IMG/VR virus record: IMGVR_UViG_3300029705_000031
DNA: 64,000 nucleotides
Direction: 5' to 3' (one strand)
DNA from: a virus
Taxonomy: Duplodnaviria > Heunggongvirae > Uroviricota > Caudoviricetes
Of the stretch, positions 23,363 through 43,543 are shown piece by piece (position 1 is the first letter of the stretch; the number at the start of each line of letters is the position of its first letter). The notes below the pieces were generated by a model, which had not been told where the DNA came from, ran no database searches, and was given only the letters and a program-made list of their open reading frames with translations. A program made the position numbers and the translations under genes.

Positions 23363-25621
23363 ATGAATGTAGCTGAATGGTTAGGAAAAGACAACCAACT
23401 TGGAATTGATATTTGGGAAAAGAAATATCGTCAAGATGATGAATCTTTTGACGAATGGCTAGATAGAGTAAGTGGTAAGGATGATGAAGTAAAACAGTTA
23501 ATTCTTGAAAAGAAGTTTTTATTTGGTGGAAGAATTCTTTCAAATAGACTACTTGATAGAAAAGCTACTTACAGTAATTGTTACGTTCTTCCTGCTCCTG
23601 AAGATAACATAGAAAGTATTTTTGATACTGCTAAGAACATGGCTAGAACATATAGCTATGGTGGTGGTATTGGTTTTGATTTATCTAAGTTAGCTCCTAA
23701 TGGTGCTAAGATTAACAATACCGCTAAGTATACTAGTGGTGCTATTTCATTTATGGATCTATACTCCATGGTTACAGGCTTGATTGGTCAGAATGGACGT
23801 AGAGGTGCTTTGATGTTATCTATGTCAGTATCTCACCCTGACATTGAGGAATTCATTAAGTGTAAGACAGATCTAGATAGAGTTACTAAAGCAAATATCT
23901 CTGTAAGAGTTTCTGATGATTTTATGAAAGCTGTTGTAAATGATGAAATGTGGACTATGTCTTTTACAAGAGATGAAACTAAAGAAACTATTAGTAAAGA
24001 AGTTAAAGCTAAAGATTTATTCAGACTAATTTGTGAAACTAATCATAACTATGCAGAACCTGGTCTACTATTCTGGGATACTGTATCTAATGGTAACTTA
24101 CTAGAATTTGATAAGGATTTTAGTTATGCTGGTACTAATCCCTGTGGAGAAATGCCTCTACCTGCTGGTGGTGCATGTAATCTAGGTTCTATTAATCTAG
24201 CAGAATTTGTAGGTGAACCTTTTACAGATGATGCATATATTGATTATATAGATTTAGAAGAAACCGTTAGAATTGCAACTAGAGCATTAAATGAAGTTTT
24301 ACATGAAGGTTTATCTAAGCATCCTCTAGACATTCAGAAAGAATCCGTTAACAATTGGAGACAGATTGGTCTTGGTGTTATGGGTATTTCTGATATGCTT
24401 ATTAAGCTTGGTGTACGTTATGGTTCAGAAGAAGCATCTACAGTACTGTATAATGTAATGAAAACTATTGCATATGAATCTTTTAAAGAATCCTATAACT
24501 TAGCCGATAAGTATGGTTCTTATCCTAACTTTAAAAAGAATAAAGTCGTTCAGTCAGCATTTTATAAAAGATTAAATGTATTTACATCTAATAATAAGAA
24601 ACTAGATAAACTAGCAAATTCTCAGTTACTAACTATTGCTCCTACTGGTACTCTTTCCACTATGTTAGGTATTAGTGGTGGTATTGAACCTATCTTTGCT
24701 AATTCCTATACTAGAACTACTCAAAGCTTACATGGAAATAACAATGATGTAGTTTATAAAGTATATACTCCTATTGTAGAAGCATATATGAAAGCCAATG
24801 GTATAACTGATGAAAAGGATCTTCCTGATTACTTTGTAACTGCAAAGGATATCAATTGGAGAGAAAGAATCAATATGCAGGCTGCAGCTCAACATTGGAT
24901 TGATGGTGCTATTAGTTCTACTCTTAATGTACCTGAAGATTTTACAGTTGAAGATGTAATGGAAGCATATATGTATGCTTGGAACGCTGGTCTAAAGGGT
25001 ATCACTATGTTCCGTGATAACTGTAAGAGAGTAGCTATTCTAAATACTGATAAACCTAAAGAAGAAGAAAAGTCTGTTATTGAACTAGCTGATAGTCTAG
25101 TCGGTAAGAGAAAAACTCTAACTACTGGTTGCGGTAGTTTACATTTACAGGCATTCTTTGATAGACATACTGGTGAACTAAAAGAAGTCTTCTTAGCTAA
25201 GGGTTCTACTGGTGGCTGCAATAACTTCATGATTGGTTTATCTAGAATGATTAGTCTAGCTGCTAAAAATGGTGTTTCTACAGCAGAAATTGTTGATCAG
25301 CTTAATAGTTGTGGTGTATGTCCTAGTTATGCAGTAAGAAGAGCAACAAAGGGTGATACAAGTCCTGGTAGTTGCTGTCCTGTTGCAGTTGGTAAGGCAT
25401 TGATTGAATTACAGAAGGAAATGAAAGATGAGATCAATCAATTTTCTTCTAATACTAAAAAAGAATCTGCTGTTCAAAAGAAAGTAGAGAAAAAAGTAGA
25501 GAAGACTAATGCTAATGTTGATCATTCTAAACCTATTAAGTGTCCAGAATGTGGAGAACCACTAAGCTTTACTAATGGATGTGACAGTTGTACTAACTGT
25601 GGTTATTCTACTTGTTCTTAA
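23363..25621 (+). CDS. nrdJ: class II (adenosylcobalamin-type, monomeric) ribonucleotide reductase with C-terminal zinc ribbon
   Basis: NPCGEMPLPAGGACNLGSINL active-site block, TLSTMLGISGGIEPIF, C-terminal CPECGE...CTNCG; no adjacent small subunit gene. Confidence 0.8.
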   Translation: MNVAEWLGKDNQLGIDIWEKKYRQDDESFDEWLDRVSGKDDEVKQLILEKKFLFGGRILSNRLLDRKATYSNCYVLPAPEDNIESIFDTAKNMARTYSYGGGIGFDLSKLAPNGAKINNTAKYTSGAISFMDLYSMVTGLIGQNGRRGALMLSMSVSHPDIEEFIKCKTDLDRVTKANISVRVSDDFMKAVVNDEMWTMSFTRDETKETISKEVKAKDLFRLICETNHNYAEPGLLFWDTVSNGNLLEFDKDFSYAGTNPCGEMPLPAGGACNLGSINLAEFVGEPFTDDAYIDYIDLEETVRIATRALNEVLHEGLSKHPLDIQKESVNNWRQIGLGVMGISDMLIKLGVRYGSEEASTVLYNVMKTIAYESFKESYNLADKYGSYPNFKKNKVVQSAFYKRLNVFTSNNKKLDKLANSQLLTIAPTGTLSTMLGISGGIEPIFANSYTRTTQSLHGNNNDVVYKVYTPIVEAYMKANGITDEKDLPDYFVTAKDINWRERINMQAAAQHWIDGAISSTLNVPEDFTVEDVMEAYMYAWNAGLKGITMFRDNCKRVAILNTDKPKEEEKSVIELADSLVGKRKTLTTGCGSLHLQAFFDRHTGELKEVFLAKGSTGGCNNFMIGLSRMISLAAKNGVSTAEIVDQLNSCGVCPSYAVRRATKGDTSPGSCCPVAVGKALIELQKEMKDEINQFSSNTKKESAVQKKVEKKVEKTNANVDHSKPIKCPECGEPLSFTNGCDSCTNCGYSTCS

Positions 25622-31366: not shown

Positions 31367-31561
31367 ATGAATAACTTTAAGGTTAAGGAAATGCAGAATA
31401 TTCTTAGAAATAATGGTTATGCAAAGAAAAGACATCGTGGATCTCATGAAATCTGGTATAATGATGATAAAAATGATACTGTAGTTATTACTAATCGTAA
31501 GAAAGGTGTTAATTACTTTACAGCAACTAAAATGATGAAAGAACATTGTATTGTAAGATAA
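31367..31561 (+). CDS. hicA: HicA-like mRNA interferase toxin homologue
   Basis: 64 aa; LRNNGYAKKRHRGSHEIW...VVITNRKKGVNYFTATKMMKE matches HicA GFxxxRxxGSHxxW...V consensus. Confidence 0.55.
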   Translation: MNNFKVKEMQNILRNNGYAKKRHRGSHEIWYNDDKNDTVVITNRKKGVNYFTATKMMKEHCIVR

Positions 31562-32336: not shown

Positions 32337-33866
32337 ATGGCGACTAAAAAGAATCTAACATATAACGAAGATAGTATTAAAGTCCAAGAATATCCTGATA
32401 ATGTAAGATCTAATCCTACAGTCTATATCAGTAGTCTTGGTAAAGAAGGTAATACGCATCTACTAAGAGAAGTAATTGATAACTCTATTGATGAATTCCT
32501 AAATGGTTTTGGTAAAACAATTACAATTGAAATTTCCAATAAAAAAGGTGTATTTAGAGTAATTGATGAAGGTCGTGGTGTTCCTCCTAAATCTATTGAA
32601 AGAGCATTTACTACATTACATGCTTCAGGTAAATTCGATAAAGATAGTTATAGCACATCAGGTGGTCAGCATGGTCTTGGTAGTACATGTGTTAATGCAC
32701 TTAGTAAGTATTTCCTTGTCATTACACATGAAGGTGGTCATGAATACTCTCAAAGATTTGAATATGGTAAGAAAGTAACTGAACTAAAAGATTTAGGAAA
32801 GTCTGATAAGGTAGGTACTATTGTAGAGTTTTGTCCTGATGAATCTGTAATGGATACATTTGAGATTGACATTGAATCAGTCAAAGATGAATGTAAGATG
32901 AAGTCTTTTATCAATAAAGGACTTACTATCATTATTAAGGACATGGATGAAAAGAAACAGGCTAAGTATTATCATAAAGATGGTATTGAGGAATACGTAC
33001 AGTTAAATGCTAAGAAAGCTCTATTTAATCCTATTACATTCTCTACATCAACTACTGTTAACAAGGCTAATAAAGAATTGAATGTAGAAATCGATTGTTC
33101 CTTTACTTATGATAACTCTACTGATCCTATCAATATTAAATCCTTCTGTAATTCCATTTATACTAGTGATGGCGGTACTCATGAAACTGGTTTTAAAACA
33201 GCTCTTACTAGTTTGATTAAAAAGTATATTGCTGATAATAACCTACTAACTAAAAAAGATGCAAATCTAGACATTACTGGTGATTCAGTTCAGGAAGGTG
33301 TAGTAGCAGTAGTATCTATCAAACATCCTCATCCGATGTATGATCAGCAGTCTAAGAAAAAGCTTAACTCTACAGAAGTTTCTGGTGCAGTAATGAAAGC
33401 AGTTAATGCAGAATTTAGTAAGTGGATTGAAACCCATGCTAAAGAAATGAAAGTACTTTGTACTAAAGTAATTGAATCTGCAAAGGCTAACAGTGCTGCT
33501 AAGAGAGCTAAAGAACTAGCTAATAAGAAATCTGAAAATGGAATTACTGCTGTTTCTGATCTATCAAAATTAGCTAACTGTATTTCTAAGAAACCTGAAG
33601 AATGTGAACTGTTTGTAGTTGAGGGTAATTCTGCAAGTTCAAGTGCTAGAAATGGTAGAGATAAGCAAACTCAGGCTGTTTATGCTCTAAGAGGTAAGAT
33701 TCTCAATACTAACAATCTAGCTGAAACTAAGATTTTTGAAAATAAGGAACTATCAGATTTGATTTATATCTTAACTGGTAAGAAAACTGCAATTGGTAAG
33801 AATTTCAATGTTGAAGACATGAAGTATCATAAACTGGTAGCCTTGACTGATGCTGACGATGACGGT
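32337..33866 (+). CDS. type IIA DNA topoisomerase ATPase subunit (GyrB/T4 gp39-like), exon 1 (GHKL ATPase + transducer + first half of Toprim, ends ...LTDADDDG)
   Basis: GHKL motifs EVIDNSIDE, IDEGRGVP, GGQHGLGSTCVNALS; Toprim VEGNSASSSARNGRDKQTQAVYALRGKILN; ORF stops 3 codons after DADDDG where GyrB continues SHIRTLLLTFFYR. Confidence 0.85.
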
Positions 33867-35157
33867 AAATGACACATTAAGTCTGCATCAGTGAGAAATT
33901 TTCTAACAATACATTAGTATTAATGTTAGGAGGTTTCATTCAAATGAAAAATGAAAAAGAAACTAAAGAAAGATATGCTTCTGGTATTGAAAATTGTAAA
34001 AAACAAGCTCAAAATCTTAAACAAAAAGCATCTGAAAAATTTTTAAGTAAAGTTTACGAACAAGTTGGTGATGATTATACTTTTCTGGAAACTTATGTAA
34101 CGAGTAAAACTAAACTCTGGGTAATACATAATGTTTGTGGACATAAGTATAGAGTAACTCCAAATGAGTTTACTTCTCATAAAAGACGTTGTCCAAACTG
34201 TGCAAATAAAAAAAGAGTACTTAATACTGGAATAAAACCTCATACATTAGAATCTATTATTGAAAGTGTAAAAGAATTATCTAATGACGAATATGAGGTA
34301 GTTAGTAATGAGTATGAAAATAATAAAGAAAAAATTTGGGTTAGACATAAAACATGTAGTTATTCATACCTTGTTCGTTATAATGACTTTCAGCAAGGAT
34401 ATAGATGTCCTTTATGTGCTGACATGAATAAAAGTCAGAATAATTCTAAACCAATACAGGATATTAAAAGTGTTCTAGATTTTAATAAAATTGAGTATGA
34501 ATCAGAAGTGTCATTTGAAGAATGTGTAGACAAACGTTTTCTTCCATTTGATATATTGGTTTATACTGATAAAGTCAATGATGAATACTTTTTAATTGAG
34601 TATGATGGACAACAACATTCTGATCCTAATGCACAATTTGGAGGAACTAAAGAAGAAAGACTTATTAGATTTGAGCTAACTCAAAAACATGACACTATAA
34701 AAAATGCTTTTTGTGAAGAAAACAGTATAAAACTTTATAGAATTTCTTATAAAGAAGATTTGATGAGCAAACTAAGAAGTATATTGGAAGAAAATAATCT
34801 AATTTGACTTGCAGTGAATGCCGTCTAAAAACCTAGTTAACTGCGGGAAACTATCAATAAACACTATTTACTAAACTAAGATAGTAATATACTTAGTGGC
34901 AATGGGTAACTCCAAAGATATAGTAAAAAGAATAGTGTTTGATACAATCGACGCAACGAAGTATCCTACATTTAGTAAAAGATAGGATATGAGTTCAACG
35001 ACTATCGAAACCAACTAACTTAATGTTAGTAATAAGGTAAGTTGAAATACTTACACGAAGGGAGTAGAGTAGGGAAATGTAAATTACAAAGTACCGAAAA
35101 GCTAGGCTATACTAATTTAGTATAGAAAATATAGTCTAAATTATGCAAAGTAATTTG
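33867..35157 (+). mobile_element. group I self-splicing intron (ORF in P1 loop) interrupting the GyrB-like gene inside the Toprim DxDxD motif
   Basis: IGS gccgtc (34818..34823) complementary to exon end gacggu with U.G at the splice site; P-like element aactgcgggaaa (34840..34851); R element gttcaacgactatcgaaacc (34993..35012); S element aaaatatagtc (35127..35137) giving P7 gacta/tagtc; omega-G 35157; exon 2 restores ...HIASLILGFVYRH. Confidence 0.8.
33923..34807 (+). CDS. intron-encoded putative homing endonuclease: three CxxH/CxxC zinc-finger-like repeats + C-terminal Vsr/DUF559-like (EDxHD-type PD-(D/E)xK) nuclease domain
   Basis: repeats CGHKYRVTPNEFTSHKRRCPNCA, CSYSYLVRYNDFQQGYRCPLCA; C-terminal FDILVYTD...LIEYDGQQHSD...RLIRF pattern typical of Vsr-like nucleases; AGGAGG RBS. 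Confidence 0.5.
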   Translation: MLGGFIQMKNEKETKERYASGIENCKKQAQNLKQKASEKFLSKVYEQVGDDYTFLETYVTSKTKLWVIHNVCGHKYRVTPNEFTSHKRRCPNCANKKRVLNTGIKPHTLESIIESVKELSNDEYEVVSNEYENNKEKIWVRHKTCSYSYLVRYNDFQQGYRCPLCADMNKSQNNSKPIQDIKSVLDFNKIEYESEVSFEECVDKRFLPFDILVYTDKVNDEYFLIEYDGQQHSDPNAQFGGTKEERLIRFELTQKHDTIKNAFCEENSIKLYRISYKEDLMSKLRSILEENNLI

Positions 35158-35982
35158 CTTCACATTGCAAGCCTTATCTTAGGATTTGTATATAGACATG
35201 CTAAACCCATTTTGGAAAAAGGTTACATGTATATTGCAATGCCTCCTCTTTATTCTATCATTGAAAGAAATAAGAAACGTTATTTCTTAAATCAAGAGGA
35301 ATATGATGCATATATTGAGGAAAAGATTTTTGAAAACTATGTATTTAGTTGTAATGAGATAGGTTTAAATAAGACTAAAGCTAAAACCATTCTTAAGAAT
35401 TTTGAAACTTACAAAAACAAAGTAAGTGAACTATCTACTAGTACAGGTATCAATATGTATTTAATTGATGATGTATGTGATTATTTACGTACTAATGAAA
35501 ATGCAACAAGTAAGGATATTGTGAATTTATTAAAACAGATTGGTGATTTTGAATTCTTTAAGAATGATGAAGGAAATTCTGAGATTAATGGTCTTTATGA
35601 TAATAGCTTTGTAAATGCAGTAATTAAGGATTTAGTAAAGTCTGCTAAAAAAGCTAAGAAGATTCTAGAAGATCTTAGTATTCCTGAAGAAGTATTCATC
35701 AATGATTATCATCTATCAATTAAGAACTATCAAGACATGTATAACAAGGTTACACCTAAGTCCAGAAGTCGATTCAAAGGCTTGGGAGAAATGGATGCTA
35801 ATGAACTTTGGGAAACTACTCTTGATCCTTCAGTTAGAAACATTATGCAAGTTGTACTATCAGATGAAGAAAAGACAGATGATACTATGGATACACTACT
35901 AAATTCTAATAGTAAGTATGCAGACAAACGTAAAGTATTCTTAATGAAAAATCAGCAAAAGATTAAGGAATTAGAAATCTAA
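35158..35982 (+). CDS. type IIA topoisomerase ATPase subunit (GyrB-like), exon 2 (rest of Toprim and C-terminal domain)
   Basis: HIASLILGFVYRHAKPILEKGYMYIAMPPLY aligns with GyrB HIRTLLLTFFYRxMxxLIExGxVYIAQPPLY; exact 3' splice site +/- a few nt. Confidence 0.8.
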   Translation, partial: LHIASLILGFVYRHAKPILEKGYMYIAMPPLYSIIERNKKRYFLNQEEYDAYIEEKIFENYVFSCNEIGLNKTKAKTILKNFETYKNKVSELSTSTGINMYLIDDVCDYLRTNENATSKDIVNLLKQIGDFEFFKNDEGNSEINGLYDNSFVNAVIKDLVKSAKKAKKILEDLSIPEEVFINDYHLSIKNYQDMYNKVTPKSRSRFKGLGEMDANELWETTLDPSVRNIMQVVLSDEEKTDDTMDTLLNSNSKYADKRKVFLMKNQQKIKELEI

Positions 35983-35991
35983 CTAATACAA

Positions 35992-36027
35992 AAAGAAAGT
36001 ATCTTATTTTAGATACTTTCTTTTTTT
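35992..36027 (+). terminator. rho-independent terminator
   Basis: aaagaaagtatct / agatactttcttt + T-run. Confidence 0.7.
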
Positions 36028-36089
36028 GTTTTAATAGGATTTATAACATTTCTATAATGAAAACTATTTTTAAGGAGTGAAATTACTAT

Positions 36090-36440
36090 ATGGCACAAGT
36101 TACTATAGATGCAACTCAGGATTACAAAGTTACTGACATTAGAAAAAACGTCAATAATAAGTATGATACTACTATTAAGATGCTTAAGAAGTGGACTATG
36201 GAAAACTTCTATTTCAATAACAATGTAGTTCATTATCTACATCCAGAAGCAGCTTACACTACTCAGATTGATAAATCCATTAGATGTAATGAGGTTGTTT
36301 ATAAGAAGTCTGAATTCGATACCCCTCTGTCTCATATGATGTACATGTTCATTGTTATTGGTAAAACAATGGAAGAAGATGAGAGAATTGAAGCTATTGA
36401 TGCTTTATGTAAGTCAGTTGAGGATGACTCTGTTGTTTGA
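36090..36440 (+). CDS. hypothetical protein (116 aa)
   Basis: ORF with AAGGAG RBS. Confidence 0.45.
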   Translation: MAQVTIDATQDYKVTDIRKNVNNKYDTTIKMLKKWTMENFYFNNNVVHYLHPEAAYTTQIDKSIRCNEVVYKKSEFDTPLSHMMYMFIVIGKTMEEDERIEAIDALCKSVEDDSVV

Positions 36441-36569
36441 CTACCAATGTTTAGAAAGAATCTAGGTTCAGGAAAACAAAGAAAATTTTGGTAATTTTCT
36501 AACTTTCTTTTTAACTATATATAATAAACCTGTCATAAAAATCAAACATTTTTAAGGAGGACATTAGTT

Positions 36570-37007
36570 ATGTATAGTTTTGGTAAGGAAGTAAGAGATC
36601 TAAAAGAAGCAGAAAAAGTTACGATTGATCTAATTGAAAATGGTAAGTTTAATGAATTTTTAGAAAAAACAAACATTGACAAAGACTTTTTAATTAGTAA
36701 GATTGAAGTGGCAGAATGTTTTACATTAGGAATTGACTATGATATCTGTCTAGAAGATTGCTTTAATCCAGAAACTCAGCAGTCGATTATTGATGAAATC
36801 AAACAGCGAGAAGGCTATGCTGACAATTCTTTAATTGTTGGAGATTGTTCTGTATATCTAGAAGATTCTGATAAGATGCTTTTTGGTTATTTCCTATGTA
36901 GTGATGTTTTCTCTAATACCAATACTGATAGCATGCTTCTACTATCTGTAGGTTTTGCTCTAGGAGAAGATATTGCCAATGCAACTAAGCAGTTTGTAAC
37001 TTTATAA
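36570..37007 (+). CDS. hypothetical protein (145 aa)
   Basis: ORF with AAGGAGG RBS. Confidence 0.45.
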   Translation: MYSFGKEVRDLKEAEKVTIDLIENGKFNEFLEKTNIDKDFLISKIEVAECFTLGIDYDICLEDCFNPETQQSIIDEIKQREGYADNSLIVGDCSVYLEDSDKMLFGYFLCSDVFSNTNTDSMLLLSVGFALGEDIANATKQFVTL

Positions 37008-37076: not shown

Positions 37077-37334
37077 ATGGAAAGCTTAAAGAATGTAATA
37101 GAAAATGAGCATATTTTTATAGTAGAAGTTGAAGAAGTTTTACAAAAGTTAGTTGCTATTAAAGCAGATAGTAAAGAAGAAGCATTAAAAAGAGCTAAAG
37201 AAAAATACAAAAATTGTGAACTTATCTTAAATGAAGAGGATTTTAAAGAAACTAGCTTTAAGATTTATGAATACAATGATCCTAGAGAAATCATAGAACT
37301 AGTAATCACAGCTTTAGCTAATAGAACTTGTTAG
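37077..37334 (+). CDS. hypothetical protein (85 aa)
   Basis: ORF with GGAGAG RBS. Confidence 0.4.
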   Translation: MESLKNVIENEHIFIVEVEEVLQKLVAIKADSKEEALKRAKEKYKNCELILNEEDFKETSFKIYEYNDPREIIELVITALANRTC

Positions 37335-38377
37335 AAAGGACTAATGATGAAATGACTATTGAAGAAATCAAAAATATGGTTAATGGTGAATCATACGATT
37401 TTCTAAGAACTAATCCACATCTTAAGGATAGAATCATTTTTCTTACATTAGGTGGTAGCTATGCCTATGGTACAAATAATGAAAATTCAGATGTAGATGT
37501 TCGTGGTTGTGCTCTTAATAGTGTTAATGATATCCTCGGTATGTCAAATTTTGAACAGGTAGTAAATACAACAACAGATACGACAATCTATAGTTTTAAT
37601 AAATTGATTAAACTCTTAATCAGCTGCAATCCTAACACCATTGAATTACTTGGTTGTAAACCAGAACACTATTTTTACATTACAGATATTGGTAAAGAAC
37701 TAATAGACAATAGAAAAATTTTTCTTTCTAAAAAAGCAGTTGAGGATTCTTTTGGTGGATATGCAACTCAGCAGCTTCGTCGTTTAGAAAATGCAATAGC
37801 TAGAGATAAACTATCACAGGAAGATAATGAAAGACACATTAGAAATTCCATGCAAAGATCTTTAAATCACTTTATTGATAAATATGGAATTTCTGATGGT
37901 AATGGTGTTGAACTCTTTATAGATAAAAGTAATCGTGATGATTTAGATTGTGAAATTTTCTGTAAGATTTACCTTGACAAAATTCCAGCAAGAGATTTTA
38001 CTGTTATGTTAAACTCTCTATCAAATGTAATTAGTAGTTATGGAAAACTAAATCATAGAAATCATAAGAAAGATGATGCACATCTTAATAAACATGCAAT
38101 GCATCTAATTAGACTGTATCTAATGGCTATTGACATTCTAGAAAAAGAAGAGATCAATACTTATAGAGAAAATGATATAGAATTTCTATTAAGTATTCGT
38201 AATGGAAGATATCAAAATGAAGATGGTACTTACCATAAAGATTTCTTTGATATTGTATCTGATTATGAAAAACGTTTAGTATATGCTAAAGAAAATTCTA
38301 GTCTTCCTATGGAGCCAAATATGGAACTTATTGAAGAATTTACAATAGATGTAAATAGGAGGTCATTAGATGTATAA
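37328..38377 (+). CDS. Pol-beta-superfamily nucleotidyltransferase (349 aa), translationally coupled to CCA-adding enzyme
   Basis: hG[GS]x9-13Dh[DE]h signature LGGSYAYGTNNENSDVDVRG near N-terminus; 8-nt overlap with next gene. Confidence 0.5.
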   Translation: MLERTNDEMTIEEIKNMVNGESYDFLRTNPHLKDRIIFLTLGGSYAYGTNNENSDVDVRGCALNSVNDILGMSNFEQVVNTTTDTTIYSFNKLIKLLISCNPNTIELLGCKPEHYFYITDIGKELIDNRKIFLSKKAVEDSFGGYATQQLRRLENAIARDKLSQEDNERHIRNSMQRSLNHFIDKYGISDGNGVELFIDKSNRDDLDCEIFCKIYLDKIPARDFTVMLNSLSNVISSYGKLNHRNHKKDDAHLNKHAMHLIRLYLMAIDILEKEEINTYRENDIEFLLSIRNGRYQNEDGTYHKDFFDIVSDYEKRLVYAKENSSLPMEPNMELIEEFTIDVNRRSLDV

Positions 38378-39713
38378 TGTCTCTTTCAATATTCCAGATA
38401 ATGTGAATGTTATCTTAGATACTTTACATGATAATGGATATGAAGCATATATAGTCGGTGGATGTGTTAGAGATAGTCTGTTAGGATTACAACCAAAAGA
38501 TTGGGATATTTGTACTTCAGCACTTCCACCACAAATACTAGAAGTTTTTAATGATAAGCGTATAATTGAAACAGGTTTAAAACATGGAACAGTTACTATA
38601 GTTCTAGATGACGAACAGTATGAGATTACAACATATCGTACTGATGGAAACTATTCTGATAATCGACATCCAGATTCAGTAACATTTGTTAGTAACCTTA
38701 AAGAAGATCTTGCAAGAAGAGATTTTACTATAAACGCTATGGCTTATAACAAACAAGATGGTTTGATTGACTATTTTAATGGTTATAAGGATTTAAAGAA
38801 TGGTATAATTTCTTGTGTTGGAGATGCTAATGAACGTTTTAATGAAGATGCGTTACGTATTATGAGAGCTTTACGTTTTTCTTCTAGATATGAAATTCCA
38901 ATTGCAGAATCCACACAAGAAGCTATTCATAAAAATAAGGATTTACTTAAAAATATTGCCATTGAACGCATTAATAGCGAATTATGTAAATTGTTACTTG
39001 GTTATGGTGGATCCTATATTTTAGCAAACTATAAAGATGTGATTACAACTATTATTCCAGAATTAAAACCTTGTATTGGATTTAATCAAAATAATCGTTA
39101 TCATGAATACGATGTTTATGATCATATCAGACATGCAGTATACAATTATGGAGGTTCGGATTTAGTAGTAATTATATCACTCTTACTTCATGATATTGGC
39201 AAACCTCATTGTTATACTGAAGACTGTAACGGAGGACATTTTTATGGTCATGGAGTAGTAAGTCATGATATAGCAGAGAAAGTATTAGACAATTTAAGAT
39301 TTGATAATAAAACAAAACATGATGTTCTTGAATTAGTATTATACCATGATTCAACTATTGAACCAACACCAAAAACAGTACGTAGATGGTTAAATAAAAT
39401 TGGTGAAAAACAATTTTTAAGACTTCTTGATATTCGTGAAGCAGATATGTTAGCACACTCCAAAGATACACAGAAGTCTAGATTAGAAAGAAATGATAAA
39501 CTTAGAAAAATTTTAGCTGAAATAATCCAATCTAATCAATGTTTTACTATAAAGGACTTAGCAATTAATGGTAAAGACATTATTGCTATGGGTGTACCTG
39601 AAGGTAAACGTATAGGTGAAATACTAAATACAGTCCTTAATGAAGTTATTAATGAAACTATTGTAAATGAAAGAAAATTTTTATTAGATTACGTATATTA
39701 TAATCTAGTATAG
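38370..39713 (+). CDS. cca: tRNA nucleotidyltransferase (CCA-adding enzyme/poly(A) polymerase family) with HD domain
   Basis: IVGGCVRDSLLGLQPKDWDICT, RRDFTINAMAY head-domain motifs and LLLHDIGKP HD motif. Confidence 0.8.
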   Translation: MYNVSFNIPDNVNVILDTLHDNGYEAYIVGGCVRDSLLGLQPKDWDICTSALPPQILEVFNDKRIIETGLKHGTVTIVLDDEQYEITTYRTDGNYSDNRHPDSVTFVSNLKEDLARRDFTINAMAYNKQDGLIDYFNGYKDLKNGIISCVGDANERFNEDALRIMRALRFSSRYEIPIAESTQEAIHKNKDLLKNIAIERINSELCKLLLGYGGSYILANYKDVITTIIPELKPCIGFNQNNRYHEYDVYDHIRHAVYNYGGSDLVVIISLLLHDIGKPHCYTEDCNGGHFYGHGVVSHDIAEKVLDNLRFDNKTKHDVLELVLYHDSTIEPTPKTVRRWLNKIGEKQFLRLLDIREADMLAHSKDTQKSRLERNDKLRKILAEIIQSNQCFTIKDLAINGKDIIAMGVPEGKRIGEILNTVLNEVINETIVNERKFLLDYVYYNLV

Positions 39714-39727
39714 AAGGAGAACACATA

Positions 39728-42700
39728 ATGGCACAGAATGTAATTCAAAAGGATATTGTTGATATTCAAAAAGACAATATGCTTCAGTATATGATGTCTC
39801 TAATGTATGATAGAGCGATTCCTGATATTAGAGATGGATTAAAACCAGTACAGAAATTTATCCTTTGGAGTTGTTACAGTTCAGGTTTCTTTCCAAATAA
39901 ACCCCATGTAAAGTGTGCTAAGATTGCTGGTGATGTTATTGCTAACTTCCATCCACATTCACTAGATGCAGCTTATGAAGCATTGTGTAGACTTGCTCAG
40001 ACTCATTCTATGAATATTCCATTAATTGATTTTCATGGTGCATGTGGTTCTATTGATGGATCAGGCGCAGCAGCTCATAGATATTGTGTGACTGGTGATA
40101 CCTTAATTAGTCTACCAAATGGTAAATTAAAAAGAATTGATGAACTAATTGAAAATTCTAATGATGATTCAACTATGGATGTAGATTTTGAAGTATTAGA
40201 TTTTAAAAATAATCCAGTACATGTTTCTAAATTCTTTAATTCTGGAAAACATGATATAATCAAGATTAAAACCAGTTCTGGTTGTACTATTAGAGGTAGT
40301 TATAATCATCCTATCTTGTGTTTATATAAAAATCCTACTGATGGTCTACCAGAATTCAGATGGACAACTTTAGATAAAATTGAAACTGGATGTTATGCTG
40401 TTATAGCATCTAAATTCAATAATTCTTTTAATGAAACTATAAGTGAAGAAGAAAAGCTTAAAGCAATTTTCTTTGGTGGAATGGTTTCTGAAGGAGGTTT
40501 ATCTAAAAATCAGAGATACTATAGAGTAAGTTTCTCCAATCAAGATAATGAATACTATAATCTAGTGGAATCTGGATATAAAGTATATCTTGAAGAGAAT
40601 AATCTAAGTAATTTGAATATTCGTATTAATCCAAATGCTCGTGGTGGAGTTAAAGAATTTTGTACTGAAGACAAAAATCTTCATAATTTAGTTAAAGAAC
40701 AAATTGGTGAAGATGCTCATAATAAACAGATTCCTCCCTATGTTCTAAACTCTAATTTAGAAATTCAAAGATGGTTTTTAAAGGCACTTTTTGAAGGAGA
40801 TGGAGGAGTAACATGTCGTTTAGATAAAAGAAGAAAAGATAATGTTACTGGACATGTATTTTATTCTACTTCTTCAACAAAACTTTTGAATGAATTAAAA
40901 ATTCTATTAATGAATTTTGGTATTAGAACTAAAGTTACTAAAGACAGATCTAATTTTAAACTTACAATTTATTCTTTAACTGACATGAAAATTTTTAAAG
41001 AAAAAATAGGATTTTTAAGTGATAGAAAAAATAAAGTATTGAATGAATTAGTAGAAAATAAAGAAATACAAATTACTAAGTCTTATGGTGTTTCTTCTTC
41101 AGATAAAATTCCATATCTTGCCGAATTCATTAGAAATAATAAACTTAGAAATACACATTATTTAAAGTCTCATAGCCTAAATTGTAAACAAGATATAGAT
41201 AAACATAATGATGTAATTAAAGATTCTTTGAGTTATGAAGAATATTTTAAGCTTATGAGAAAACTTGAAGTTTTAGATTTATACCATTATGAAGAAATTA
41301 TTGAAGTTGAAAGACTACCAGAAGAAGTAGTATATTCAATTAAAGTAGATTCTAATGATCATAGTTTTATTAGTAATGGTTTTATTAGTCATAATACTGA
41401 GGCAAAACTTAGTAAATATGGATTAGATATTCTTAGTGAAATCGATAAGGATGCTGTTGATTTTGAAAAGAACTATGATGTAACTAAAGATCAACCAACT
41501 GTTTTACCTGCAGTAATTCCTAATATCCTATTGAATTCTTCAATGGGTATTGCAGGTGGTTATGCTTCTTCAATTCCTCCACATAACATCAAGGATGTAT
41601 GTAATACTGTATGTGAACTAATTGATAATCCTAATATGTCAGTTCAAGATGTAGCTAAGAAACTAGTTCCTGACTTTCCTACAGGTGGTATCTTATGTTC
41701 TAAGAAGGAAATTGAAAAAGCTTACATTACTGGTCAGGGTTCAGTAAAACTAAGAGGTAGAGCAACTATCAATAGAAATAAGAATAACACATCAGAAATT
41801 GTTATTACTGAAATTCCATTTATGACTACAATTGGTCCTCGTATGAGTGGCACATCTACTAATACTGAGGGTGGTTTGATTAATTCCATTGTAGCTAAGA
41901 TTAAAGATGGTACAATTGATGGAATTAAGGATATTCACGATATTTCTGATAAGAATGGTCTATGTATTAAAGTTTTTATCAAGAAAGATTATGACCCTGA
42001 TGTTATTCTAAATCAGTTATACAAGTTCACTCAGTTAGAATCTACTTTTAAGATCATTCTAGTTTGTAAGAATGGTAATTTCTTTAAGGTTTATAACATC
42101 AAGGAAATTCTAACTGAATGGATTGAATTCCGTGTATCTACTATTAGACGTATCATTACACATGATATCAAGAAAGCTAAGTATCGTGAACATATTCTAG
42201 AAGGTCTATTAAAAGCATTAACTGATATCGATACTGTTATTAGTATCATTAAGAAAGCTAATGGAAGAGCTGATGCTAAAGTAAAGTTAGTTAGGAAATA
42301 TGGATTTACTGATTTACAGGTTGAAGCTATTCTTGACATGAAACTTTCTCAGTTAAACTCTCTAGATGGAAAGAAGCTAGAAGAAGAAAAACTAAGTAAG
42401 CAAAAAGAAATTCTAGAACTAAAAGAGAATTGGAAAGAATCCAATATCTATGAAAGAATTAAGAAAGAACAGAAAGAATTTGCTAAAAAATATGGTAGTG
42501 AAAGAAAGACTACTGTAGAAGAGATTGATACTGATATTACTACTGAAGACATTATTGCTGATGAAGATACTTTGATTGTCATTACTCAGGGTAATTACAT
42601 TAAGCGTATTTCAAATGAGTTTAGAACTCAGAAACGTGGTACTCAGGGTATTTCTATTGGTGATAACTCTATCACAGAAATGTTCTCTGCTTCTACTAAG

Positions 42701-43543
42701 GATCATCTACTATGTTTTACTAATACTGCCAGAGTCTATGATTTAAAAGCTTATGACATTAAAGAATCTAAGGATCTTAAAGCTAAGGGTTTAAGAATTG
42801 AAAATTATCTAAATCTAAAAGAAAATGAAACAGTTACTAACATTCTATGTATCAATAATACACAGATGAATGATAATGAATCCTTCCTAGTTTTCGCTAC
42901 TAAGAATGGTATGATTAAGAAAACTAAGTTAGAAGAATTCAATAACATTCGTTCTACTGGTATTATTGCTTTGATGTTAAAGTCTGGTGATGAACTAGTT
43001 TCTGTAAAGTATATTGATACTAGTAAACCTATGCAAGATATCTTGATTTCTACTAAAAATGCTCAGACAGTTAGATATGATCATGAAGAAATCAAAGAAT
43101 TAGGTAGAAATACCTATGGTGTAATTGGTATTAATCTAGAAAATGATGACCGTATTACAGATATGTGTATCATTGAAGATGACGAACAACTAATCTTCTT
43201 TGCTACTAAAAATGGTTTAGGTAAAACTATTCGTATTACTGATAATGTAGAAAAAGTTGATCCCAATACTAAAGAAAAAGTAATCATCAATGATGGTTTT
43301 CCTAGACTAAAACGCTCATCCAACATTAAAGGCAGACTATGCATGAAACTAAAAGAAAATGACGAATTAGTTTCAATGGTAGCTATCAATAATGTAAATG
43401 ACGAACTAATGATTGTTACTGATAGCAAACTATTAGTAGTCAATACTGAAGAATTCAAAGAACCTTTAAAGAGACCTACTTATGGTAAGAAATTAGTTAG
43501 TTTGACTAATGAAGACTATGTAAGAAAGGTGATTCTAAAGTGA
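39728..43543 (+). CDS. type IIA topoisomerase DNA breakage-reunion subunit (GyrA/ParC-like; precursor containing an intein)
   Basis: N-terminal GyrA blocks HPHSLDAAYEALCRLAQ and AAAHRY(active-site Tyr)...TEAKLSKYG split by intein; C-terminal beta-pinwheel-like repeats. Confidence 0.85.
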   Translation: MAQNVIQKDIVDIQKDNMLQYMMSLMYDRAIPDIRDGLKPVQKFILWSCYSSGFFPNKPHVKCAKIAGDVIANFHPHSLDAAYEALCRLAQTHSMNIPLIDFHGACGSIDGSGAAAHRYCVTGDTLISLPNGKLKRIDELIENSNDDSTMDVDFEVLDFKNNPVHVSKFFNSGKHDIIKIKTSSGCTIRGSYNHPILCLYKNPTDGLPEFRWTTLDKIETGCYAVIASKFNNSFNETISEEEKLKAIFFGGMVSEGGLSKNQRYYRVSFSNQDNEYYNLVESGYKVYLEENNLSNLNIRINPNARGGVKEFCTEDKNLHNLVKEQIGEDAHNKQIPPYVLNSNLEIQRWFLKALFEGDGGVTCRLDKRRKDNVTGHVFYSTSSTKLLNELKILLMNFGIRTKVTKDRSNFKLTIYSLTDMKIFKEKIGFLSDRKNKVLNELVENKEIQITKSYGVSSSDKIPYLAEFIRNNKLRNTHYLKSHSLNCKQDIDKHNDVIKDSLSYEEYFKLMRKLEVLDLYHYEEIIEVERLPEEVVYSIKVDSNDHSFISNGFISHNTEAKLSKYGLDILSEIDKDAVDFEKNYDVTKDQPTVLPAVIPNILLNSSMGIAGGYASSIPPHNIKDVCNTVCELIDNPNMSVQDVAKKLVPDFPTGGILCSKKEIEKAYITGQGSVKLRGRATINRNKNNTSEIVITEIPFMTTIGPRMSGTSTNTEGGLINSIVAKIKDGTIDGIKDIHDISDKNGLCIKVFIKKDYDPDVILNQLYKFTQLESTFKIILVCKNGNFFKVYNIKEILTEWIEFRVSTIRRIITHDIKKAKYREHILEGLLKALTDIDTVISIIKKANGRADAKVKLVRKYGFTDLQVEAILDMKLSQLNSLDGKKLEEEKLSKQKEILELKENWKESNIYERIKKEQKEFAKKYGSERKTTVEEIDTDITTEDIIADEDTLIVITQGNYIKRISNEFRTQKRGTQGISIGDNSITEMFSASTKDHLLCFTNTARVYDLKAYDIKESKDLKAKGLRIENYLNLKENETVTNILCINNTQMNDNESFLVFATKNGMIKKTKLEEFNNIRSTGIIALMLKSGDELVSVKYIDTSKPMQDILISTKNAQTVRYDHEEIKELGRNTYGVIGINLENDDRITDMCIIEDDEQLIFFATKNGLGKTIRITDNVEKVDPNTKEKVIINDGFPRLKRSSNIKGRLCMKLKENDELVSMVAINNVNDELMIVTDSKLLVVNTEEFKEPLKRPTYGKKLVSLTNEDYVRKVILK
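40085..41395 (+). mobile_element. intein (437 aa) with LAGLIDADG homing-endonuclease domain, inserted immediately after the catalytic tyrosine codon of the GyrA-like gene
   Basis: block A CVTGDTLISL, block B GSYNHPIL (TxxH), two LAGLIDADG motifs AIFFGGMVSEGG and FLKALFEGDGGV, block G VYSIKVD...ISHN followed by +1 Thr (TEAKL); removal restores AAAHRY-TEAKLSKYG. Confidence 0.9.

What the first reader, a model, noticed from the sequence alone, without database searches (positions are those of the whole stretch)
33867..35157. Group I intron with Vsr/EDxHD-like endonuclease splits the GyrB-like topoisomerase gene inside the Toprim DxDxD motif
Exon 1 stops at ...LTDADDDG and exon 2 resumes with HIASLILGFVYRH, exactly where GyrB reads DADVDG-SHIRTLLLTFFYR. 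The intervening 1.29 kb has a canonical internal guide sequence (gccgtc pairing the exon end gacggu with U.G at the splice site), a P-like aactgcgggaaa element, an R element (gttcaacgactatcgaaacc) and an S element (aaaatatagtc) forming P7, and ends in G. The embedded ORF sits between the 5' splice site and the internal guide sequence, so it lies in the P1 loop. The same topoisomerase subunit is split between genes 39 and 60 in phage T4, and a mobile cassette (mobA plus the gene 60 bypass element) has been described there, which argues that this gene is a recurrent target for mobile elements.
Basis: partly seen in the sequence, partly recalled or inferred. Interest (0 to 1): 0.65.

Follow-up and report, generated by a model that had tools for sequence, protein, structure and literature searches.

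The report
Mobile intron splits phage topoisomerase gene
A self-splicing group I intron carrying its own DNA-cutting "homing" enzyme interrupts the GyrB-like topoisomerase gene of an uncultured jumbo phage; the call is correct, but this is an ordinary member of a very common class of phage introns.

Summary
Window 33867..35157 (1291 nt) interrupts a GyrB-like topoisomerase II large-subunit gene directly after the codons for DADDDG. Joining 32337..33866 to 35158..35982 gives a 784-aa protein. It is colinear with phage topo II profiles and matches an uninterrupted 83%-identical homologue exactly across the junction.

The insert is a group I intron. Its ribozyme core (34814..35157) is homologous to introns at the same codon boundary in four other phages. 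One of these, in Bacillus phage Internexus, passes Rfam's curated threshold.

Across the five introns, 97.5% of core pair cells form standard pairs and 20 of 42 pairs show compensatory changes. P1 has the U·G wobble, P10 covaries with exon 2, and the intron ends in G.

The 287-aa ORF (33944..34807) lies in the P1 loop, as claimed. It has two zinc ribbons and a Vsr-like nuclease domain. The best structural matches are Vsr, a DUF559-like protein and I-Bth0305I, with the catalytic residues in register.

Introns in gyrB of this phage clade are already reported, and over 200 related introns appeared in the loci fetched. This is a new member of a known kind. Splicing and homing are inferred, not shown.

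The parts
32337..33866 (+). Exon 1 of the GyrB-like topoisomerase II large subunit (510 codons, ends ...LTDADDDG). The last 6 nt, GACGGT (33861..33866), form the 5' strand of P1.
   Evidence: ORF list. Pfam HATPase_c, DNA_gyraseB and Toprim 1-69/96. phrog_543 profile positions 16-521.
33867..35157 (+). Group I intron, 1291 nt. The first intron bases are AAA TGA, which stop the exon-1 reading frame. The last base is G (omega-G).
   Evidence: Absent from the syntenic related phage L005 (blastn breakpoints; junction). Same insertion point in PALS_2, Internexus, BpSp and L156.
33928..33933 (+). Shine-Dalgarno sequence AGGAGG for the intron ORF, 10 nt before the ATG at 33944.
   Evidence: Read from the sequence.
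33944..34807 (+). Homing-endonuclease gene, 287 aa (an upstream ATG at 33923 would give 294 aa). N-terminal helix, two treble-clef zinc ribbons and a C-terminal Vsr-like nuclease domain with D203, E219, H225, D250 and K253. It lies in the P1 loop.
34814..34818 (+). Intron strand of P10 (GTGAA). It pairs with exon-2 bases TTCAC at 35159..35163.
   Evidence: P10 pairs covary in all five same-site introns. Recovered by the MFE fold.
34820..34825 (+). Internal guide sequence GCCGTC, the 3' strand of P1. It pairs with GACGGU at the exon-1 end, with U.G at the splice site.
   Evidence: Sequence. P1 is 100% paired in the 4 sequences that hold exon 1.
34832..34855 (+). 5' strands of the core helices: P3 (CCTAGT 34832..34837), J3/4 (TAAC), P4 (TGCGGG 34842..34847) and P5 (TATC 34852..34855).
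   Evidence: Hand-trimmed alignment A6 and pair counts. Rfam alignment. MFE fold.
34856..34940 (+). Peripheral extension of P5 (variable among homologues).
   Evidence: MFE fold. Alignment A3.
34941..34990 (+). P5 3' strand (GATA 34941..34944), P4 3' strand (TC[GA]CGCA 34948..34955) and the P6 hairpin (GTATCCTA 34961..34968 with TAGGATAT 34983..34990).
34993..35005 (+). J6/7 plus the P7 5' strand (GTTCAAC GACTAT), the 'R' element.
   Evidence: Unique in the window. The extended 18-mer GTTCAACGACTATCGAAA (34993..35010) is found in at least 119 IMG/VR stretches.
35007..35100 (+). Peripheral hairpins between P7 and P3' (P7.1/P7.2-like), including the conserved GGGAGTAGAGTA.
   Evidence: MFE fold. 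Conserved block in Internexus, PALS_2 and L156.
35101..35136 (+). P3 3' strand (GCTAGG 35101..35106), P8 hairpin (35107..35125), J8/7 and the P7 3' strand (ATAGTC 35131..35136, the 'S' element).
35138..35157 (+). P9 hairpin (AAATTA / TAATTT) followed by the terminal G at 35157.
   Evidence: Read from the sequence. The MFE fold gives an alternative hairpin, GCAAA/TTTGC.
35158..35982 (+). Exon 2 (274 codons plus stop). It starts LHIASLILGFVYRH and carries the rest of Toprim and the GyrB C-terminal domain.
   Evidence: Pfam DNA_gyraseB_C. phrog_543 profile positions 523-645. Joined-protein Toprim 1-94/96.
35990..36025 (+). Terminator-like hairpin with a T-run just after the exon-2 stop. None lies between the exons.

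Best explanation
This is a mobile group I intron, of the phage IA-like type with extra hairpins between P7 and P3', inserted in the GyrB-like topoisomerase II large-subunit gene of an uncultured AR9/PBS1-related jumbo phage.

Splicing (inferred):
- The gene is transcribed as one unit.
- Ribosomes reading exon 1 stop at a TGA two codons into the intron.
- The intron folds so that the guide GCCGUC pairs with the exon-1 end GACGGU, giving U.G at the splice site.
- An external guanosine attacks the 5' splice site.
- GUGAA, just upstream of the guide, pairs with UUCAC at the start of exon 2 to form P10.
- The exons are ligated after the terminal G, restoring ...DADDDG-LHIASL... and a complete Toprim domain.

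Homing (inferred):
- The P1 loop carries a 287-aa homing endonuclease with its own ribosome-binding site.
- It has zinc-ribbon DNA-binding modules and a Vsr-like (EDxHD-type) nuclease domain.
- It presumably cuts intron-less alleles of co-infecting relatives near this codon boundary, so that recombinational repair copies the intron in.

What is shown and what is inferred: the anatomy, homology, covariation, colinearity and protein fold are shown here. Splicing, endonuclease activity and homing follow from what is established for group I introns and for I-Bth0305I.
For: Junction and insertion site:
- An intron-less homologue (L005, 83% aa identity) matches the predicted ligated junction residue for residue. 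It lacks exactly this 1291-nt block.
- The joined protein is colinear with phrog_543 (profile positions 521 then 523) and completes Toprim.
- Introns sit at the identical codon boundary in Staphylococcus phage PALS_2 (HEG also in the P1 loop), Bacillus phages Internexus and BpSp (both ORF-less) and IMG/VR contig L156.

Ribozyme:
- The Internexus intron scores 64.7 bits on Rfam RF00028, above the gathering score of 50.
- An HMM of the four other introns finds the window core at E=1.1e-13.
- Pair counts: 97.5% of 203 cells are paired, against 32-48% when the partners are slid. 20 of 42 pairs show double changes. 0 of 500 shuffles reach the observed values. P3, P5, P6, P8 and P10 all covary.
- The MFE fold independently gives P10, P3, P4, P5, P6 and P8, with z=-3.6.

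Exon flanks:
- All four intron-containing alleles whose exon-1 end is held (window, PALS_2, Internexus, BpSp) end in GACGGT.
- AR9 (intron-less) and Internexus (intron-containing) differ around the site only at positions -4, -1 and +3, which lie in the exon strands of P1 and P10.

Endonuclease:
- The ORF is intact. The two Cys clusters, D203, E219, D250 and K253 are invariant, and H225 is nearly invariant.
- 13 of 31 relatives match DUF2726 and 3 match DUF559.

Transcription unit and assembly:
- A terminator-like hairpin appears only after exon 2.
- The same 3.85-kb stretch is present, with one mismatch, as a JGI metagenome contig (sample 3300018475). This argues against a misassembly if that contig comes from a separate assembly; the window's own source is not known.
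Against: - Rfam's group I model scores only 18.8 bits on the window itself, and nothing is reported at gathering threshold.
- The covariation alignment was trimmed and fitted by hand to the proposed helices. Two unpaired nucleotides were removed, so the pair counts lean towards the structure.
- The sequence link of the nuclease domain to I-Bth0305I is marginal: hmmsearch E=0.098 and hhalign probability 74%. The His lies one residue nearer the Asp than in Vsr and I-Bth0305I.
- There are no RNA data, so splicing efficiency and protein dependence are unknown.
- P1 has to close over about 950 nt of translated RNA, which could make splicing inefficient.
- An ATG at 35143 could in principle start a separate C-terminal fragment.
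Confidence: 0.9

Rival explanations
1. The ribozyme is decayed or splicing-dead. The two gene halves are made as separate polypeptides that assemble, as gp39 and gp60 do in phage T4, and the ORF behaves as a free-standing homing endonuclease between them.
For: - T4 shows that a split large subunit can work (annotation; bioRxiv 10.1101/2022.08.31.505936).
- GenBank annotators of PALS_2, Internexus, BpSp, PB50 and AH12 called two separate gyrB CDSs.
- An in-frame ATG lies at 35143.
- The Rfam score is sub-threshold.
Against: - Every core helix, the U.G pair, P10 and the terminal G are intact and maintained by compensatory changes in five lineages. That would not be expected without selection for splicing.
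- There is no Shine-Dalgarno sequence before 35143.
- There are none of the N- or C-terminal extension tails that accompany the T4-type split.
- Exon 1 stops only 2 codons past the junction.
- Exon flanks of intron-containing alleles are tuned to P1 and P10.
Confidence: 0.06
2. The intron splices, but the ORF is no longer an active homing endonuclease. It would be a domesticated or decaying passenger, or act as a maturase-like helper, so the element is now vertically inherited and not mobile.
For: - ORF-less versions exist at the same site in BpSp and Internexus. This shows that the HEG is dispensable and is lost or gained over time.
- No activity data exist.
- The sequence link to the one characterised relative is only marginal.
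Against: - The ORF is full length with its own ribosome-binding site.
- All zinc ligands and catalytic residues are invariant or nearly so across 31 relatives.
- The family is multi-copy in related phages: up to 13 places in Internexus and 410 phage records in all. This is typical of active homing genes.
- The intron is distributed patchily among close relatives, for example PALS_2 versus S6 and Internexus versus AR9.
Confidence: 0.15
3. The insert is another kind of element, such as a group II intron, an intein or a transposon, or it is an assembly chimera.
For: Nothing specific. This was considered only because Rfam gave no hit at its curated threshold.
Against: - There are no reverse-transcriptase, Hint or transposase domains.
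- The insert is not in frame with the exons.
- The sequence recurs in a JGI metagenome contig.
- It is homologous to bona fide group I introns.
Confidence: 0.01

Closest known systems
Group I introns at the same codon boundary (DADDDG|) of gyrB in Staphylococcus jumbo phage PALS_2 and Bacillus jumbo phages vB_BspM_Internexus and vB_BpuM-BpSp. In these records the gene is annotated only as two gyrB fragments.
   Same: - Identical insertion point after GAT GAC GGT.
- Same guide sequence (GCYGTC) and homologous P3-P8 core.
- P10 pairs with the first bases of exon 2.
- PALS_2 also carries a homologous endonuclease (35% identity) in the P1 loop.
   Different: - The core is only about 68% identical to the best match.
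- The window intron has a larger P5 extension.
- It lacks the P9.x hairpins (CAGTTCATAAGAGAAC...) that the other three share.
- BpSp and Internexus have no ORF.
- The host phage shares only 32-36% aa identity in the topoisomerase.
Predicted gyrB introns of the MarsHill-like Staphylococcus jumbo phages (Korn et al., bioRxiv 10.1101/2020.12.14.422802; joined CDS in GenBank), and the small intron in PB50 and AH12.
   Same: Same gene, same phage clade and same Toprim acidic motif. The literature already treats gyrB and gyrA of AR9-like phages as intron and intein targets.
   Different: In PB50 and AH12 the intron is about 190 nt, has no ORF and sits 9 nt upstream (SDAD|DDG), so it is a different insertion site. 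The exact MarsHill and Machias junctions were not examined.
I-Bth0305I, the prototype of the EDxHD (Vsr-like) homing endonucleases, encoded in the recA group I intron of Bacillus phage 0305phi8-36 (PMC3239194; PDB 3R3P).
   Same: - Intron-encoded in a large Firmicutes phage.
- Catalytic residues align: ours D203/E219/D221/H225/D250 with theirs D196/Glu of IEVNG/N208/H213/D222.
   Different: - The N-terminal DNA-binding part here is a long helix plus two treble-clef zinc ribbons (DUF4379/CapR). I-Bth0305I has NUMOD/HTH motifs instead.
- The I-Bth0305I ORF interrupts P5, whereas this one is in the P1 loop.
- Sequence similarity is only marginal (E 0.098).
- The nearest Pfam families among relatives are DUF2726 and DUF559.
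Phage T4 genes 39 and 60 with the MobA/bypass cassette.
   Same: Same enzyme subunit and the same Toprim region are hit by a homing-endonuclease element. The 50-nt gene-60 coding gap follows codon 46, the Gly of DADHDG, which is the same codon boundary as this intron.
   Different: - T4 resolves the interruption by splitting the protein and by ribosomal bypass, not by RNA splicing.
- The 39/60 split is about 17-30 codons upstream.
- MobA is an HNH enzyme.
- No sequence similarity to the intron was seen.

Membership tests
Group I intron (Rfam RF00028) | P1 formed by an internal guide sequence and the 5' exon end, with a U.G wobble at the 5' splice site. | tested here: met
   GACGGU pairs with GCCGUC. 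All six pairs are standard in the 4 sequences that hold exon 1, and the U.G is invariant.
Group I intron (Rfam RF00028) | Conserved catalytic core P3-P8, including the P3/P7 pseudoknot and the P/Q/R/S elements, supported by covariation. | tested here: met
   97.5% of cells are paired and 20 of 42 pairs are compensatory, against 32-48% paired for the slid controls (on a hand-fitted alignment). P7 is invariant, so it is uninformative. The MFE fold recovers P3, P4, P5, P6 and P8.
Group I intron (Rfam RF00028) | Terminal G at the 3' end, and P10 between the guide region and the 3' exon. | tested here: met
   G at 35157. GUGAA pairs with UUCAC. P10 covaries in all five same-site introns.
Group I intron (Rfam RF00028) | Score at or above Rfam's gathering threshold (50 bits). 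| tested here: not met
   The window scores 18.8 bits (E 0.05 in a 1.5-kb search) and is not listed in whole-window searches. The homologous Internexus intron at the same site scores 64.7 bits and the phiR1-37 gyrB intron 69.8 bits. The window core matches the same-site family HMM at E=1.1e-13. The low score is attributed to large peripheral insertions and the P1-loop ORF.
Group I intron (Rfam RF00028) | Guanosine-dependent self-splicing and exon ligation. | not testable with these tools
   Needs RT-PCR or RNA-seq, or in-vitro transcription with GTP.
EDxHD / Vsr-like homing endonucleases (I-Bth0305I family) | Vsr-like nuclease fold. | tested here: met
EDxHD / Vsr-like homing endonucleases (I-Bth0305I family) | Composite catalytic motif (Glu, Asp, His, Asp) conserved. 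| tested here: met
   D203, E219, D250 and K253 are invariant and H225 is present in at least 90% of 31 relatives. They align with D196(A), the Glu of IEVNG, H213(A) and D222 of 3r3p, with a one-residue shift at the His.
EDxHD / Vsr-like homing endonucleases (I-Bth0305I family) | Statistically significant sequence relationship to family members. | tested here: inconclusive
   3r3p is the top PDB hit of the nuclease-domain profile, but at E=0.098. hhalign gives probability 74% and E 2.8e-5. A single-sequence search finds nothing.
EDxHD / Vsr-like homing endonucleases (I-Bth0305I family) | N-terminal NUMOD/helix-turn-helix DNA-binding region. | tested here: not met
   The N-terminus is a long helix plus two treble-clef zinc ribbons (Pfam DUF4379 and CapR). 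It is best described as a Vsr-like homing endonuclease with a different DNA-binding module.
EDxHD / Vsr-like homing endonucleases (I-Bth0305I family) | Site-specific double-strand cleavage of the intron-less allele. | not testable with these tools
   Needs the protein and a cleavage assay.
Type IIA topoisomerase B subunit (GyrB/ParE/gp39 type), for the host gene | GHKL ATPase, transducer, Toprim with the E and DxDxD acidic residues, and a C-terminal tail, all colinear in one polypeptide. | tested here: met
   On the joined protein Pfam finds HATPase_c, DNA_gyraseB, Toprim 1-94/96 and DNA_gyraseB_C. It matches phrog_543 'topoisomerase II large subunit'. Closest relatives are the AR9/PBS1 gyrB genes.

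The most novel reading that the evidence does not exclude
The codon boundary just after the Toprim DxDxDG may be a shared landing point for unrelated selfish elements. This intron family sits there in AR9-like phages, and the coding gap of the T4 MobA/bypass cassette lies at the same boundary. The bypass element could then occupy, or have replaced, an ancient intron or homing site.

Separately, the endonuclease gene sits inside the P1 loop. The 5' splice site and its guide are therefore about 950 nt apart on RNA that is being translated, so splicing of an essential replication gene might be gated by translation of the selfish gene.
Probability: 0.12. Interest if true: 0.5.

Novelty: new member of a known kind. 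Interest (0 to 1): 0.3.

Why it matters
The practical value is in annotation.
- This phage's topoisomerase large subunit should be annotated as one 784-aa spliced product.
- The same unannotated intron explains the "two gyrB fragments" in the GenBank records of PALS_2, Internexus and BpSp.
- The endonuclease family (phrog_559) is labelled "HNH endonuclease" or "hypothetical" and is present in 410 phage records. Here its catalytic domain has a Vsr-like fold, so the label is misleading for this member.

Biologically, the finding adds a well-documented case to two general observations.
- Homing elements repeatedly target DNA that encodes catalytic metal-binding motifs.
- Intron, intron-less and ORF-less alleles coexist among related jumbo phages.

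None of this changes current understanding.

Tried and rejected
- **Rfam on the whole window.** Neither gathering nor E-value mode reported anything for the intron. Only a 1.5-kb search gave a sub-threshold hit.
- **Megablast of the locus against 50,697 phage records.** No match, so the phage itself is not in that collection.
- **Protein-seeded scan of metagenome contigs.** No relatives found.
- **Pattern search for ORF-less same-site introns in IMG/VR.** Zero hits. A looser guide-plus-P4 pattern gave 34 loci, of which only L156 is in the topoisomerase gene.
- **Single-sequence PDB search and NCBIfam for the endonuclease.** Uninformative: only zinc-ribbon look-alikes.
- **A special relationship to the NADFDG| introns.** I asked whether introns with the same guide, found after NADFDG| in a different gene, are especially close to the gyrB-site introns, which would suggest transposition by reverse splicing. 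The gene was not identified; NADFDG resembles the RNA polymerase beta' catalytic motif, from my own knowledge. Their HMM scores (87-113 bits) are no higher than those of introns with unrelated guides (about 85-118 bits), so this was rejected for lack of support.
- **A dedicated promoter for the endonuclease gene.**
  - Sigma-70-like sites are not above chance.
  - An AR9-type late-promoter match (AACA-N6-TA, 33905..33916) exists, but the motif occurs 0.8 times per kb, so it is only a hint.
- **A covariance model excluding the window.** Not built, because the calibration time was expected to exceed the limit. An nhmmer test was used instead.
Full report
**What is in the sequence**

The + strand ORF 32337..33872 encodes the N-terminal 510 residues of a GyrB-like protein: Pfam HATPase_c, DNA_gyraseB, and Toprim profile positions 1-69 of 96. 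It ends ...LTDADDDG, followed by Lys and a TGA stop. A second ORF in the same orientation contains ...LHIASLILGFVYRH... and a GyrB C-terminal domain. Between them lie a 287-aa ORF (33944..34807, preceded by AGGAGG) and about 350 nt of non-coding sequence.

Joining 33866 to 35158 keeps the reading frame and gives a 784-aa protein.
- It matches the phage "DNA topoisomerase II large subunit" profile phrog_543 colinearly. Exon 1 covers profile positions 16-521 and exon 2 covers 523-645.
- Its Toprim match extends to 1-94 of 96, and the score rises from 37.2 to 49.3 bits.

Its text omitted the Leu that begins exon 2, and the insertion lies just after the DxDxDG motif rather than inside it.

**An empty site in a relative**

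A 299-kb IMG/VR contig (L005) encodes an uninterrupted homologue with 83% aa identity. It reads ...LTDADDDGLHIASLILGFVYRHAKPIL..., which is exactly the predicted ligated junction. DNA alignment of L005 to the window breaks at the two proposed splice sites.

The window stretch 33046..36896, including the intron, recurs with a single mismatch in a 3.85-kb JGI metagenome contig. This argues against an assembly artefact, provided that contig comes from a separate assembly; the window's own source is not known.

**The same element elsewhere**

The closest topoisomerase relatives (32-36% identity) are AR9/PBS1-like Bacillus jumbo phages and Staphylococcus jumbo phages. The gene is interrupted after the same GAT GAC GGT in four other places:

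| Source | Insert | ORF |
|---|---|---|
| Staphylococcus phage PALS_2 | 1266 nt | Homologous ORF directly after the 5' splice site |
| Bacillus phage Internexus | 404 nt | None |
| Bacillus phage BpSp | 303 nt | None |
| IMG/VR contig L156 | Core present; contig ends 5 nt before the guide | Not known |

In BpSp the start of the intron reads GACGGT|GAAATGATT GCCGTC, a P1 hairpin with a 9-nt loop. In the window and in PALS_2 the endonuclease gene occupies exactly that loop. The window ORF stops 6 nt before the P10 strand and 12 nt before the guide sequence.

**Is it a group I intron?**

Rfam's general model is weak on the window: 18.8 bits against a gathering score of 50, and the hit is not listed when the whole window is searched. 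The homologous Internexus intron passes at 64.7 bits with E 1.9e-14. An HMM built from the four other same-site introns, without the window, hits the 64-kb window once, at 34814..35140, with E=1.1e-13.

I cut the five introns down to their proposed helices. This was a hand-fitted alignment. I removed two unpaired nucleotides from it (a GA bulge in the window's P4 3' strand is separate from these: the removals were that bulge and one J6/7 base in PALS_2), as disclosed. On it I counted pairs for P1, P3, P4, P5, P6, P7, P8 and P10.
- 97.5% of 203 cells form standard pairs, against 32-48% when the partners are slid by 1-3 columns.
- 20 of 42 pairs show changes on both sides.
- No shuffle out of 500 reaches the observed values.
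- P7 (GACUAU/AUAGUC) and most of P1 and P4 never vary, so they are uninformative. P3, P5, P6, P8 and P10 all covary.

P10 is especially telling. The five bases just 5' of the guide pair with the first bases of exon 2 in every intron: GUGAA/UUCAC, UGUAA/UUACA, UGAUA/UAUCA, AUGAU/AUCAU and UGUGA/UCACA.

An unconstrained MFE fold of 34808..35165 recovers P10, P3, P4, P5, P6 and P8 on its own, with z=-3.6. The intron ends in G and the 5' splice site has the U.G wobble.

**Exon flanks**

All four intron-containing alleles whose exon-1 end is held (window, PALS_2, Internexus, BpSp) end exon 1 with GACGGT. Most intron-less alleles use other synonymous codons: L005 GACGATGGA, AR9 GATGATGGA, and LPJP1 and PB50 ...GATGGA. 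AR9 (intron-less) and Internexus (intron-containing) differ around the site only at positions -4, -1 and +3, which lie in the exon strands of P1 and P10. This pattern fits co-conversion during homing, or selection for the guide pairings. Staphylococcus phage S6 has the uninterrupted GATGATGACGGT|TTGCAT and is a plausible natural recipient.

**The intron-encoded protein**

- *Family and conserved residues.* It matches Pfam DUF4379 (treble-clef zinc finger) and CapR, and phrog_559 at 1e-53. Across 31 relatives the invariant residues are the Cys of two zinc ribbons, D203, E219, G222, D250 and K253, and H225 is nearly invariant.
- *Pfam matches of relatives.* 13 relatives match DUF2726 and 3 match DUF559.
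- *Sequence link to I-Bth0305I.* A profile of the C-terminal domain has 3r3p as its best PDB sequence match (E 0.098; hhalign probability 74%). Our D203 aligns to the mutated D196A position, and the Glu, His and second Asp are in register to within one residue.

"Vsr/EDxHD-like" is therefore supported for the nuclease domain. The DNA-binding part differs from I-Bth0305I, which has NUMOD/HTH motifs and whose ORF interrupts P5 (PMC3239194).

The family is widespread: 410 phage records, and up to 13 places in one genome. In other introns it sits in other loops. It lies between P4 and P7 in L013 and L079, after P7' in phiR1-37, and again in the P1 loop in L144 and L153. P1-loop endonuclease genes are also reported in fungal mitochondrial introns (PMC4964425).

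**How ordinary is it?**

- The family HMM finds 222 related introns in the loci fetched, in many genes and with many different guide sequences.
- Introns in DNA gyrase B of MarsHill-like Staphylococcus jumbo phages, and introns or inteins in gyrA of AR9 and MarsHill, are already described (bioRxiv 10.1101/2020.12.14.422802). They are annotated as joined CDSs in GenBank.
- Within this clade I saw three different intron sites in the Toprim region:
  - ELFLVEG|DSAGG in phiR1-37, whose intron scores 69.8 bits on Rfam.
  - SDAD|DDG in PB50 and AH12, a small ORF-less intron.
  - DADDDG| here.

**The T4 comparison**

BLAST of the joined protein against T4 gp39 and gp60 places the 39/60 split between query residues 478 and 495, some 17-30 codons upstream of this site. 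However, the 50-nt bypass gap of gene 60 follows codon 46, the Gly of DADHDG. That is the very codon boundary used by this intron. A preprint on MobA elements places the cassette in Toprim and notes that Vsr-family endonucleases replace MobA in some metagenomic clades. I treat the coincidence as a lead, not a result.

**Mechanism and verdict**

The best explanation (confidence 0.9) is a mobile group I intron that self-splices to restore the topoisomerase subunit. Its P1-loop gene encodes a Vsr-like homing endonuclease that spreads it to intron-less alleles. The anatomy, homology, covariation, colinearity and protein fold are shown here. Splicing, cleavage and homing are inferred from established knowledge of group I introns and of I-Bth0305I.

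The main rival is a dead ribozyme with the gene expressed as two subunits. The maintained covariation and the absence of a ribosome-binding site for exon 2 count against it. Whether the endonuclease is still active is open; I give 0.15 to the possibility that it is not.

Novelty: a new member of a known kind. Interest: 0.3.

Noticed in passing
window 39728..43543 (+); intein roughly aa 127-556, DNA about 40075..41393: The partner GyrA-like topoisomerase subunit carries an intein with a LAGLIDADG endonuclease domain (Pfam Intein_splicing and LAGLIDADG_3). The related phage L005 lacks this block. Both subunits of this phage's topoisomerase II are therefore invaded by different selfish elements.
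   Followed up: partly
L163 (phage T4 NC_000866 2000-6000), gene 60; compared with window 33866|35158: The 50-nt translational bypass gap of T4 gene 60 follows codon 46, the Gly of DADHDG. That is the same codon boundary as this intron's insertion site. The 39/60 gene split itself is about 17-30 codons upstream.
   Followed up: partly
IMG/VR loci L129, L134, L138, L143, L145-L147, L152, L154, L157, L158, L160, L162: Related ORF-less introns with the same guide sequence (GCYGTC) sit directly after the codons for NADFDG (variants NCDFDG and NADYDG) in a gene that was not identified. The motif resembles the catalytic NADFDGD of the RNA polymerase beta' subunit (from my own knowledge). A second group (L137, L141, L142, L149, L155, L161) follows ...GADVDS. 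Their HMM scores show no special closeness to the gyrB-site introns.
   Followed up: partly
L126 and L128 (Staphylococcus phages PB50 and AH12), about 3019..3210; L004 (phiR1-37) 1764..2069: There are two further intron sites in the same Toprim region. One is a roughly 190-nt ORF-less intron at SDAD|DDG, 9 nt upstream of this site. The other is an intron at ELFLVEG|DSAGG whose endonuclease gene (g313) lies after P7'. In GenBank all of these are annotated as separate gyrB fragments.
   Followed up: partly
window 33944..34807; PHROG phrog_559: The endonuclease family is labelled 'HNH endonuclease' in PHROGs and RefSeq, or 'hypothetical protein'. Here its catalytic domain has a Vsr-like PD-(D/E)xK fold, so the label looks wrong for this member.
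   Followed up: partly
window 33905..33916: AACA-ATACAT-TA matches the AR9 late-promoter consensus AACA-N6-T(A/G) (PMC5312081) and lies 28 nt before the endonuclease start codon. The motif occurs 0.8 times per kb on this strand, so this may be chance. AR9 does have an intron-borne gene (g190) with its own promoter.
   Followed up: partly
window 34198: This is the single difference between the window and JGI contig Ga0187907_10117616 (sample 3300018475). It is C versus G and changes Asn85 to Lys inside the first zinc-ribbon CPNC of the endonuclease.
   Followed up: no
window 31367..31561 (+): A 64-aa ORF containing ...KKRHRGSHEIW... resembles a HicA-type toxin. This is a recollection only and no search was run.
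   Followed up: no
window 23363..25621, 37328..38377, 38370..39713, 15468..17144: Neighbouring genes include a ribonucleotide reductase large subunit, an RlaP-like nucleotidyltransferase, a tRNA nucleotidyltransferase and a DnaB-like helicase. Three large ORFs (39..3323, 5849..7441 and 7759..11928) have no PHROG match.
   Followed up: no
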